Assembly (NCBI RefSeq): GCF_057098645.1
Contig: NZ_CM169472.1
DNA length: 64,000 nucleotides
Strand: one strand, 5' to 3'
The notes below the pieces were generated by a model. That model was not told the origin of the DNA. It did no database searches and saw only the letters and a program-made list of their open reading frames with translations. Each line of letters starts with the position of its first letter. Within the stretch, counting starts at the first letter, position 1. This document shows, piece by piece, positions 1-1,083 of this stretch. Made by a program: the position numbers and the translations under genes.

Positions 1-1083
1 CTTTACGGTTATCTTCCACTTCGTGTTTCAACGAACTGAAGTTGTTATTGAGCGAATTGATTTGCTGGCTGTTATCTGCAACACGTTTTTGCGTGTTTGT
101 TAACTGCTGGTGCGTTTGGGCAGAATCTTGTGTCAGACTTTCGATTTGCTCATGTGCCTGGGCCGAGTCTTGCGCAAGGTTTCGAATTTGTTCACCGTAT
201 TGCACGCTATCGATTTGCTGTTGCGTCGCGACATTGGAAGCCAGTTCATTAATTCTCTGCTCCTGATCAGCGGTTGAACGTTCATTGGCTTCATTTTGCG
301 CCGTCAGTTTGGCATTAATCATCTTTTGATAATGCGCAGTTGACTGGGGATCGCCGATTGCAGCGACCGTTTTTTCTGTGGCTGCGATCTGCTTCTGTTG
401 CTCTGTAATCTGCGTTTGTTGGTCTTCAGACTGTGATTGTTGCGCATCAGCAGTGGCGGCAACGGTTTTTTGCGTGGCAGTGATTTGTTCCTGCTGTTCG
501 GTAATCGCCGTACTGTTTTTTTCAATCTGGTTTTTGTTGTCGCTTACGACACCGGAAAGTTTCTGGCCATTCATCAACGCGGTATTAGCGTTCTCGTTGG
601 CATGATCTGCACTTGCTTTAACATCTGCGACATCTTTCTGAGTATCAGCAATAGCTCCCTTGTTCGCATCAATTGCAGATTGCGCAGTGGTAAGCGCTTT
701 TTTGGCGTCATCTGCATTTGCCGCCGCAATGCTTGCGATATTGTGTGCATTCTGAATGGCGGTATCTTGCGCCGCGTCGCGATCTGCCTGGTTTTTATCG
801 GTGACAGTGCTGTCAGTCTGTACGGCTGTACTGGTGGGGTAAATATTATCGCCTGTCTGTGGGTCCATATATCCATGAGAAAACAGGTAATCTTGCGCGG
901 CTTCTGTATTACCTGTCCGAATCATGAAGCGATTGATTTTTTGATCGATTTCATCATGAGACATACCTGGGTGAATCGCTGTCAGTTCTGTCGCTGCCGC
1001 TTCAACCGTATCATCTGCAAAAGCAGATGGGCTCACAATGGTAGCAACAACGACTGCCAGTAAAGACAACTTTACAGATTTCA
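1..1083 (-). CDS. Secreted repeat-rich coiled-coil protein, possibly adhesin or autotransporter-like; N-terminal 361 codons only, gene runs off the window start
   Basis: Hand translation of the minus strand from ATG at 1083-1081 gives MKSVKLSLLAVVVATIVSPSAFA/DD..., a Sec-type signal peptide, then more than 330 codons of Q/A/T-rich repetitive sequence with no stop before position 1. Not in the ORF track because it is truncated by the window edge. Weak SD. Confidence 0.55.

What the first reader, a model, noticed from the sequence alone, without database searches (positions are those of the whole stretch)
1..1083. Partial gene for a secreted, highly repetitive coiled-coil protein not expected next to ybbJ
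The minus-strand reading frame starting at 1083 encodes a classical signal peptide (cleavage after AFA) followed by more than 330 residues dominated by Q, A, T, D, N in heptad-like repeats (for example ITEQQEQITATQKTVAA and ITEQQKQIAATEKTVAA). This resembles stalk regions of surface adhesins or autotransporters, and the gene continues beyond the window. In K-12 I expect cueR immediately upstream of ybbJ, so this looks like strain-specific accessory DNA.
Basis: partly seen in the sequence, partly recalled or inferred. Interest (0 to 1): 0.55.

Follow-up and report, generated by a model that had tools for sequence, protein, structure and literature searches.

The report
Trimeric autotransporter adhesin gene, O-island 29
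The finding is the first 361 codons of an already annotated outer-membrane "trimeric autotransporter" adhesin gene in a known E. coli accessory island; the only surprise is that its O157:H7 counterpart was published as a DNA-binding motility regulator (GmrA), which the sequence does not support.

Summary
The minus-strand frame is open for 361 codons, starting at an ATG at 1084 (not 1083). It encodes a signal peptide ending AFA, then a Q/A/T/D/N-rich (55%) heptad-periodic helix.

The window is E. coli O145:H28. In the complete genome the gene is 436 aa (WP_000843739.1, "YadA-like family protein"). The 75 residues beyond the window hold a YadA-type membrane anchor (Pfam E=2.7e-10), and fold matches are to Hia, AtaA and YadA anchors. 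It is therefore a type Vc trimeric autotransporter adhesin with a small helical N-terminal domain and a long coiled-coil stalk.

The gene sits in O-island 29, inserted where the cueR and ybbJ stop codons abut in K-12. Alleles range from 338 to 717 aa through gain and loss of stalk cassettes.

Published primers show that the O157:H7 allele (Z0639/ECs0548) is "GmrA", reported as a fliA-binding transcriptional activator. I found no DNA-binding domain in either allele. The divergent neighbour Z0640 (window 1450-1812) is the island's HTH-like protein.

TAA, lipoprotein, a 67-aa membrane protein and Z0640 form a cassette also found in Pseudocitrobacter.

Verdict: an ordinary, already catalogued gene. 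The conflict with the literature is worth noting.

The parts
1..1084 (-). 5' part (codons 1-361 of 436) of a trimeric autotransporter adhesin gene: the O145:H28 allele of OI-29 z0639/ECs0548 ('gmrA'), WP_000843739.1. The last 75 codons, which include the YadA anchor (aa 377-436), lie beyond the window start.
   Evidence: Open frame; 100% identical to O145:H28 genomes, annotated as 'YadA-like family protein'; Pfam YadA_anchor on the full-length protein.
1016..1084 (-). Sec signal peptide, aa 1-23 (MKSVKLSLLAVVVATIVSPSAFA).
   Evidence: Read directly from the sequence; hydrophobicity peak; conserved in all alleles.
809..1015 (-). N-terminal passenger domain, aa 24-92. It has three short predicted helices (aa 27-69) with the conserved motif ELxAIxxGMSxxExxQKIxRFxxRxG, followed by a low-confidence linker.
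   Evidence: AF2 secondary structure, pLDDT 73-81 for aa 31-80; invariant columns; no Pfam family; the 175-residue N-terminal query (aa 24-198) has relatives in only 14 clusters among 1.84 billion representatives.
2..808 (-). Coiled-coil stalk, aa 93-361. The helix continues to aa 374 outside the window. It includes the lineage-variable cassette region (window about 430-956) and the duplicated 17-mers at 455-505 and 359-409.
   Evidence: AF2 predicts a continuous helix 93-374 with a break at aa 244-245; 3.5-residue periodicity; cassette gain and loss among alleles; no nucleotide alignment to the O157 allele across window 430-956.
1085..1449 (.). AT-rich divergent intergenic region (365 bp) between the adhesin gene and z0640. 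One sigma-70-like site lies on the minus strand at 1206->1178.
   Evidence: G+C 34-37%. The promoter-like match is no more than chance expects. The region is 90% identical to O157 Sakai.
1450..1812 (+). z0640 (ECs0549), 120 aa. It is a putative XRE-type helix-turn-helix DNA-binding protein, transcribed divergently from the adhesin gene.
   Evidence: Published z0640 qPCR primers map at 1495-1516 and 1774-1799. AF2 pLDDT 84.8. The best Foldseek PDB hits are predominantly XRE-type HTH domains, best HigA2 with TM 0.68 and rmsd 2.4 but E=0.17. Weak Pfam match to the MqsA HTH region. Divergent pairing with a TAA gene is conserved in Pseudocitrobacter.
1813..1914 (.). Right end of the island, with REP-like palindromic elements, up to the ybbJ stop codon at 1915.
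   Evidence: The sequence GCCGGATGCGGCG...CGCCTTATCTGGCCTAC. Sub-threshold Rfam naRNA4 (REP-derived) matches at 1798-1865 and 1888-1954. K-12 junction.

Best explanation
Window 1..1084 (minus strand) encodes the signal peptide, a small helical N-terminal domain and most of the coiled-coil stalk of a 436-aa trimeric autotransporter adhesin (type Vc secretion). Shown: the domain layout, namely a signal peptide, about 280 residues of heptad-periodic helix running directly into a four-strand YadA-type anchor that ends in Phe. Inferred from established knowledge of YadA, Hia and AtaA: the precursor is exported by Sec. Three C-terminal four-strand segments are assembled by BAM into one 12-stranded barrel. 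The three passenger chains pass through it and zip into a trimeric coiled-coil rod that holds the N-terminal domain away from the cell surface, where it mediates adhesion, autoaggregation or a related surface interaction. The gene belongs to O-island 29 (between cueR and ybbJ). It is probably co-transcribed with a downstream lipoprotein gene and a 67/68-aa membrane-protein gene, and it faces a divergent HTH-like gene (z0640) that is the likeliest local regulator. Stalk length varies between lineages (338-717 aa) by gain and loss of coiled-coil cassettes. The O145:H28 allele is an intermediate form.
For: The frame is open for 361 codons and carries a signal peptide. The full gene is annotated 'YadA-like family protein'. 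Pfam YadA_anchor matches aa 377-436 at E=2.7e-10, and the O157 allele at E=2.6e-11. PDB sequence and profile hits are only TAA anchors (AtaA 9vnj, Hia 2gr7/2gr8/3emo, YadA 2lme) and the UspA1 stalk. The AF2 monomer shows helix 93-374 followed by four strands at 385-434, and its top five Foldseek PDB hits are the Hia, AtaA and YadA anchors (E 1e-6 to 1e-3, target TM 0.67-0.75). Heptad periodicity is present. All listed homologues of complete length carry PF03895; two N-terminal partial sequences lack it. Alleles share the N-terminus and the last ~200 residues but differ in stalk cassettes. The accessory genes are far better conserved between genera than the passenger: lipoprotein 67%, small membrane protein 48%, z0640-like 74%, against 28% for the TAA. 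That pattern fits a diversifying surface-exposed protein. An earlier genome comparison listed ECs0548 among adhesion genes as 'Saa-like' (PMC2323221).
Against: No canonical TAA head, neck or stalk Pfam domain is found. The AF2 model is of low overall confidence (pLDDT 61, pTM 0.27) and is a monomer. Trimerisation, surface exposure and any ligand are untested. The anchor lies outside the window and is known only from identical genomes. The one experimental paper on the O157 allele (PMC5826968) reports a motility phenotype and DNA binding, tests adherence only for a whole-island deletion (its section title says OI-29 is not required for adherence), and does not test surface display.
Confidence: 0.92

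Rival explanations
1. The protein is a cytoplasmic DNA-binding transcriptional activator of fliA, as published for the O157:H7 allele GmrA (Z0639).
For: PMC5826968 reports several results: reduced motility and fliA/fliC expression in gmrA mutants of eight strains, complementation by gmrA alone, an EMSA shift of the fliA promoter, ChIP-qPCR enrichment, and a CDD-predicted 'DNA-binding domain'. The published primers map exactly onto ECs_0548, the homologue of this gene. A 2024 review still lists it as a predicted transcription factor.
Against: Both alleles have a signal peptide and a significant YadA anchor as their only Pfam domain. The only 'DNA'-named matches are sub-threshold coiled-coil noise: TMF_DNA_bd at E=0.16 and E=2, and SMC/Rad50 NCBIfam hits at 17-27 bits against cut-offs of 567-1087. 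One source even names a homologue 'Smc'. The PDB profile search finds only TAAs. The EMSA protein carried an N-terminal His tag in front of the signal peptide. The ChIP protein carried 3xFLAG fused after the terminal Phe of the anchor. By inference, both constructs would prevent normal export or barrel assembly.
Confidence: 0.05
2. It is a trimeric autotransporter whose main role is not host adhesion. Candidate roles are immunoglobulin binding or serum resistance (as for Eib proteins), autoaggregation or biofilm formation (as for Saa), or an influence on flagellar expression through envelope or surface signalling.
For: The architecture is almost pure coiled coil, with no beta-rich adhesive head. 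By background knowledge, Ig binding in Eib proteins maps to the stalk. The O157 island deletion did not change adherence but did change motility (section title and text in PMC5826968).
Against: There is no sequence match to the EibD structures in the PDB searches. Similarity to plasmid-borne YadA-family proteins is confined to aa 342-436 at 36% identity. None of these functions was tested.
Confidence: 0.3
3. It is a silent or decaying accessory gene with no current function.
For: It lies in a low-G+C island with an AT-rich upstream region of the kind often silenced. No above-chance promoter match was found. Neighbouring accessory genes decay: siiEA, next to cueR, is a pseudogene.
Against: The ORF is intact and 100% identical over window 1-1084 in 22 of the 25 near-full-length genomes listed, with the other three at 98.2-99.9%. 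Intact alleles with PF03895 occur across Escherichia and Shigella. The O157 allele is transcribed (RPKM 96 in DMEM, Table S3 of PMC5826968) and its deletion has a phenotype.
Confidence: 0.08
4. It is a prophage-derived tail or adhesin protein.
For: PHROG families annotated as adhesin or tail match (phrog_17426 at E=4e-22). Phage genomes encode proteins 32-39% identical over the C-terminal third. One distant family member sits among methylase and anti-defence genes (L005).
Against: There are no phage genes in or next to the island. The matches are mainly to the anchor and the stalk next to it. The locus is a small four- to five-gene chromosomal cassette, and it is also chromosomal in Pseudocitrobacter.
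Confidence: 0.03

Closest known systems
GmrA / Z0639 / ECs0548 of E. coli O157:H7 (O-island 29; Yang et al. 2018, PMC5826968)
   Same: Same chromosomal locus between cueR and ybbJ, with the same neighbours: the z0640 gene and the z0638 lipoprotein gene. The proteins are collinear, with a conserved signal peptide and N-terminal domain and about 85% identity over the last ~200 residues, including the anchor.
   Different: Overall identity is 52%. The O145:H28 allele is 98 residues longer because of extra stalk cassettes, and there is no nucleotide-level alignment across window 430-956. The O145 island also carries an extra 407-aa gene next to cueR. The published function (transcription factor) does not fit the sequence of either allele.
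YadA / Hia / AtaA (structurally characterised trimeric autotransporter adhesins)
   Same: A C-terminal four-strand anchor preceded by a helix, a terminal aromatic residue, and a coiled-coil stalk.
   Different: It lacks the beta-roll head, neck, Trp-ring/GIN and YadA_stalk motifs. The passenger is almost entirely alpha-helical, with a ~50-residue helical N-terminal domain that has no family assignment.
NadA of Neisseria meningitidis and UspA1/A2 of Moraxella (mostly coiled-coil TAAs)
   Same: Overall architecture: a short passenger dominated by a coiled coil with a small N-terminal tip. A UspA1 stalk fragment (6qp4) is the only non-anchor PDB hit (E=0.0018). The NadA resemblance comes from background knowledge and was not tested here.
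   Different: No detectable sequence similarity to NadA in the PDB searches. The N-terminal motif ELxAIxxGMSxxExxQKIxRF is specific to a small enterobacterial group.
Saa (STEC autoagglutinating adhesin) and Eib immunoglobulin-binding proteins of E. coli
   Same: They are E. coli accessory TAAs of similar size. ECs0548 was labelled 'Saa-like' in Ogura et al. 2007.
   Different: Plasmid-borne YadA-family proteins match only over the anchor region (36% identity, aa 342-436), and the one inspected is not named Saa. No EibD match appears in the PDB searches. No authentic Saa sequence was available for a direct comparison.
SadB-SadA (Salmonella) and AtaA-TpgA (Acinetobacter): TAA genes paired with a helper lipoprotein or periplasmic protein
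   Same: The TAA gene is followed by a conserved lipoprotein gene, and here also by a 67/68-aa membrane-protein gene. Both travel with the TAA gene across genera. The comparison with SadB and TpgA rests on background knowledge.
   Different: The lipoprotein has no sequence similarity to any solved structure, SadB and TpgA included, and has no Pfam or NCBIfam family. A helper role is inference only.

Membership tests
Trimeric autotransporter adhesin (type Vc secretion) | N-terminal Sec signal peptide | tested here: met
   MKSVKLSLLAVVVATIVSPSAFA|DD has the n-, h- and c-regions and an AXA motif. The hydrophobicity peak is 2.8, against at most 1.05 in the rest of the passenger. It is conserved in all alleles. 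No dedicated signal-peptide predictor was available.
Trimeric autotransporter adhesin (type Vc secretion) | C-terminal YadA-like anchor: four beta-strands ending in an aromatic residue | tested here: met
   PF03895 at aa 377-436, E=2.7e-10. PDB hits are the AtaA, Hia and YadA anchors. AF2 predicts strands 385-394, 397-407, 412-421 and 426-434. Foldseek's top five hits are TAA anchors. The terminus is ...GVGYSF. This part lies outside the window and is taken from the identical RM13514 genome.
Trimeric autotransporter adhesin (type Vc secretion) | Alpha-helical coiled-coil stalk continuous with the anchor helix | tested here: met
   AF2 helix 93-374; 3.5-residue hydrophobic periodicity reached by 0 of 1000 shuffles.
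Trimeric autotransporter adhesin (type Vc secretion) | Obligate homotrimer forming one 12-stranded barrel | not testable with these tools
   Only monomer prediction was available. This needs AlphaFold-Multimer or SDS-resistant trimer detection.
Trimeric autotransporter adhesin (type Vc secretion) | Surface exposure and adhesive activity of the passenger | not testable with these tools
   No experiment was possible. The published work on the O157 allele did not examine surface display.
YadA-type head/neck/stalk architecture (typical, not obligatory, for TAAs) | Recognisable YadA_head, neck or YadA_stalk motifs | tested here: not met
   Pfam reports only the anchor in both alleles.
OI-29 z0639 (gmrA) orthologous group | Same locus and neighbours, collinear homology | tested here: met
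   Located between cueR and ybbJ with z0640 and the z0638 lipoprotein gene. The published primers map to the homologue. BLASTP E=1e-137 at 52% identity. The paper itself lists O145:H28 RM13514 as OI-29-positive.
DNA-binding transcription factor (the published role of GmrA) | A recognisable DNA-binding domain | tested here: not met
   Pfam, NCBIfam and PDB searches of both alleles find none. Only sub-threshold coiled-coil matches occur: TMF_DNA_bd at E 0.16-2, and SMC/Rad50 hits far below their cut-offs.
DNA-binding transcription factor (the published role of GmrA) | Cytoplasmic location | tested here: not met
   The signal peptide and the outer-membrane anchor predict export. This is a prediction and was not measured.
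Saa / Eib adhesins of E. coli | Homology extending beyond the generic anchor | tested here: inconclusive
   Plasmid YadA-family proteins match only aa 342-436 at 36% identity. The one inspected is not labelled Saa. No EibD hit in the PDB. No authentic Saa sequence was compared.

The most novel reading that the evidence does not exclude
The O157:H7 homologue, published and still reviewed as the transcriptional activator GmrA, is really an outer-membrane trimeric autotransporter. If so, its effect on fliA and motility is indirect (envelope or surface signalling, or artefacts of tagged and mislocalised protein). The island's genuine DNA-binding protein would then be the divergently encoded HTH-like Z0640. 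TAA, lipoprotein, 67-aa membrane protein and Z0640 would form a self-contained adhesin cassette, not previously described, that is conserved across Escherichia and Pseudocitrobacter.
Probability: 0.45. Interest if true: 0.5.

Novelty: already known. Interest (0 to 1): 0.33.

Why it matters
The gene itself is routine. It is a catalogued YadA-like adhesin gene in a known EHEC O-island, useful mainly as a lineage marker: this allele is essentially restricted to O145:H28.

It matters for two reasons. First, the same gene in O157:H7 is carried in the literature and in reviews as a transcription factor (GmrA), although the sequence says outer-membrane adhesin. Work that builds on GmrA as a regulator, or counts it among island-encoded regulators, may rest on a misassignment. 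The real link between a surface adhesin and flagellar expression would then be worth re-examining.

Second, the conserved cassette (HTH-like gene, TAA, lipoprotein, small membrane protein) and the cassette-wise variation in stalk length offer a compact system for studying TAA biogenesis helpers and antigenic or length variation in E. coli.

Tried and rejected
- Translation from 1083 as given: out of frame and full of stops. The correct start is 1084.
- DNA tandem repeats in the gene: none found, so the peptide repeats are diverged duplications, not a repeat array.
- NCBIfam on the TAA: only SMC, Rad50 and other helix-rich hits far below their cut-offs, rejected as coiled-coil noise.
- A SadB/TpgA-like helper role for the downstream lipoprotein: no PDB sequence hit at E<=10 other than noise and no family in NCBIfam or PHROGs. 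Left as a hypothesis.
- 'Saa-like' label: only anchor-level similarity to plasmid TAAs, and the plasmid gene inspected is not labelled Saa. Not confirmed.
- Prophage origin: PHROG and phage tblastn hits are mainly to the anchor and adjacent stalk, and there is no phage context.
- Promoter and terminator scans and the inverted-repeat search of the intergenic region: nothing above chance.
- Rfam: only sub-threshold REP-derived naRNA4 matches near ybbJ.
- Pfam on the 407-aa O145-specific gene: nothing.
- The plus-strand ORFs overlapping the gene (for example 437..1063, 208 aa, TTG start) were set aside. I took them to be shadows of the real frame and ran no homology or family search on them.
- I could not see which CDD model the GmrA paper called a DNA-binding domain, because the figure is not held.

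Full report
**Observation**

Translating from 1083 gives a frame full of stops, whereas translating from 1084 gives 361 open codons running off the window start. The other five frames of 1..1084 contain 5-29 stops.

The product begins MKSVKLSLLAVVVATIVSPSAFA|DD, a textbook Sec signal peptide. Its hydrophobicity peak is 2.8, against at most 1.05 anywhere else in the passenger.

The 338 mature residues in the window are 55% Q/A/T/D/N and contain no Cys or Trp. Both quoted peptides are present, at aa 194-210 and 226-242, as parts of one duplicated segment of about 32 residues. Large hydrophobic residues have their strongest periodicity at 3.5 residues, which none of 1000 shuffles reaches.

At the DNA level there is no tandem repeat, so 'highly repetitive' overstates the case.

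**Identity**

The window is E. coli O145:H28. Bases 1-1900 are 99.9% identical to RM13514, RM12581 and other O145 genomes, and bases 1-1084 are 100% identical.

In RM13514 the gene is 1311 bp and encodes 436 aa. It is annotated WP_000843739.1, 'YadA-like family protein'. The 75 residues missing from the window contain the decisive domain:

- Pfam YadA_anchor matches aa 377-436 at E=2.7e-10 and is the only significant Pfam hit.
- Sequence and profile searches of the PDB return only the membrane anchors of AtaA, Hia and YadA, plus a UspA1 stalk fragment.
- An AlphaFold2 monomer has modest confidence (pLDDT 61). It shows three short helices at aa 27-69, a low-confidence linker, one long helix at 93-374 and four beta-strands at 385-434.
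- That model's five best Foldseek matches in the PDB are the Hia, AtaA and YadA anchors.
- The protein ends in ...GVGVGYSF, the aromatic terminus typical of outer-membrane barrels.

This is the architecture of a type Vc trimeric autotransporter adhesin (TAA). It lacks the usual beta-rich head, neck and YadA_stalk motifs.

**Locus**

In K-12 the cueR stop codon (514400) directly abuts the ybbJ stop codon (514401). In O145:H28, 4179 bp are inserted there (L001 9736-13914). The window covers the right-hand 1914 bp of that insert.

The insert has 34-48% G+C, against 52-60% in the flanks. It is O-island 29 of O157:H7. In Sakai, cueR is followed by a lipoprotein gene (ECs_0546), an 'adhesin' gene (ECs_0548, 338 aa), a 120-aa hypothetical gene (ECs_0549) and ybbJ.

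Compared with Sakai the island is a mosaic:

| Segment | Identity to Sakai |
|---|---|
| cueR | 99% |
| 1.3 kb with a 407-aa gene | absent from Sakai |
| small membrane-protein gene, lipoprotein gene and 3' TAA | 86% |
| window 430-956 (stalk) | no alignment |
| window 957-1815 (5' TAA, intergenic region, z0640) | 90% |
| ybbJ | 97% |

**Family**

Homologues with PF03895 occur in E. coli, Shigella, E. marmotae and other Escherichia, with lengths of 338, 422, 436, 456, 459, 497, 530-600 and 702-717 aa.

An alignment shows a conserved signal peptide, a conserved N-terminal domain (motif ELxAIxxGMSxxExxQKIxRFxxRxG) and a conserved C-terminal ~200 residues. Between them lies a variable number of coiled-coil cassettes.

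The passenger DNA of this particular allele is found at megablast level in only 33 of 5426 complete E. coli genomes, 28 of them near full length. The 24 best of these are O145 or unserotyped strains with an identical allele. The anchor-coding part is found in at least 540 genomes, and the z0640 flank in 1464.

A 175-residue N-terminal query (aa 24-198: the N-terminal domain plus the first stalk cassette) has relatives in only 14 clusters among 1.84 billion representative proteins. These include more distant TAAs of 633 and 708 aa.

**Conflict with the literature**

Yang et al. 2018 (PMC5826968) named Z0639 of OI-29 'GmrA'. They described it as a transcriptional activator that binds the fliA promoter and is required for motility, and they cited a CDD-predicted DNA-binding domain.

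Their primers settle which gene this is. The cloning primer ATGAAAACTGTAAACGTAGCTTTA and the FLAG-fusion primer ending GAACGAATATCCCACGCCG (its reverse complement encodes GVGYSF) map exactly to the two ends of ECs_0548. Their z0640 primers map to window 1495-1516 and 1774-1799, and their z0638 primers map to the lipoprotein gene. GmrA is therefore the O157:H7 allele of the gene in this finding. BLASTP gives E=1e-137, 52% identity overall and about 85% over the last 200 residues.

In GmrA too, the only significant Pfam domain is YadA_anchor (E=2.6e-11). The only 'DNA'-named matches are sub-threshold coiled-coil hits such as TMF_DNA_bd at E=0.16. In NCBIfam they are SMC and Rad50 at 17-27 bits, against cut-offs of hundreds.

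The EMSA protein carried an N-terminal His tag ahead of the signal peptide. The ChIP protein carried 3xFLAG after the terminal Phe. By inference, both would keep the protein out of its normal pathway.

A 2024 review still lists GmrA as a predicted transcription factor. Current RefSeq, by contrast, names the O157 gene 'YadA family autotransporter adhesin', and an earlier comparison called it 'Saa-like'.

I cannot explain the reported motility phenotype from sequence. The most economical reading is an indirect effect of a surface or envelope protein.

**Neighbours**

Z0640 (window 1450-1812, 120 aa) is transcribed divergently, across a 365-bp region of 34-37% G+C.

- Its AF2 model is confident (pLDDT 84.8, pTM 0.73).
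- The best PDB fold matches are predominantly XRE-type helix-turn-helix domains: HigA2, Aca2, P2 C, MqsA C-terminal domain, C-proteins and lambda cI. E-values are weak (0.17 and worse), but the superposition is good (TM 0.68, rmsd 2.4 Å over 63 columns).
- Pfam gives a weak match to the MqsA HTH region.

Downstream of the TAA gene lie a lipoprotein gene and a 67/68-aa membrane-protein gene that overlaps it by 4 nt. That small ORF is present but unannotated in the Sakai record.

The same four genes occur together in Pseudocitrobacter, between qmcA and fetA. There the accessory proteins are 48-74% identical to the E. coli ones, but the TAA is only 28% identical. A second Pseudocitrobacter locus pairs a 633-aa TAA with a z0640-like gene.

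This conserved synteny suggests one functional cassette: regulator, adhesin and two envelope helpers. The helper and regulator roles are inference. The lipoprotein has no detectable similarity to any solved structure.

**Verdict**

The gene is an already catalogued trimeric autotransporter adhesin gene of a known accessory island, present here as the O145:H28 long-stalk allele.

Its intrinsic novelty is low. The useful by-product is the mismatch between sequence and published function for its O157:H7 homologue, together with the conserved four-gene cassette.

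Noticed in passing
window 1450-1812 (+): Z0640/ECs0549 (120 aa, 'hypothetical') is predicted with good confidence to contain an XRE-type helix-turn-helix fold. It is conserved as the divergent partner of TAA genes in Escherichia and Pseudocitrobacter, and it is the likeliest DNA-binding protein of OI-29.
   Followed up: yes
L002 35569-35772 (-) (O157 Sakai); L001 11048-11254 (-) (O145): A 67/68-aa single-pass membrane-protein gene overlaps the lipoprotein gene stop by 4 nt. It is annotated in O145 but not in the Sakai RefSeq record, and it is conserved (48% identity) in the Pseudocitrobacter cassette. 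OI-29 therefore holds at least four genes, not the three described in the paper.
   Followed up: partly
L001 9736-10959 (-), outside the window: The O145:H28 island carries an extra 407-aa hypothetical gene next to cueR that is absent from O157 Sakai. It has no Pfam, NCBIfam or PHROG family.
   Followed up: partly
L001 1-9331, outside the window: Upstream of cueR lies a giant BapA-related adhesin gene, siiEA (a pseudogene with an internal stop), together with its type I secretion ABC and HlyD-family genes. cueR is thus flanked on both sides by accessory adhesin loci in this lineage.
   Followed up: no
window 1798-1954: REP-like palindromic elements lie between z0640 and the ybbJ stop codon. 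They give sub-threshold matches to the REP-derived Rfam family naRNA4 (RF02564; 30-32 bits against a gathering score of 59.5).
   Followed up: partly
L005 (Logan ERR13332828 contig, 102 kb): A distant 708-aa family member with the same N-terminal motif sits among DNA methylase genes, a porin gene and an Acb2/Tad1-like anti-defence gene. This suggests that some members of the family travel on phage- or plasmid-like elements.
   Followed up: no
L004 5966-7732 (+) (Pseudocitrobacter faecalis): A second TAA-like gene (588 aa, ending ...GSLSVGW) lies immediately downstream of the 633-aa family member, so the two TAA genes are in tandem.
   Followed up: no
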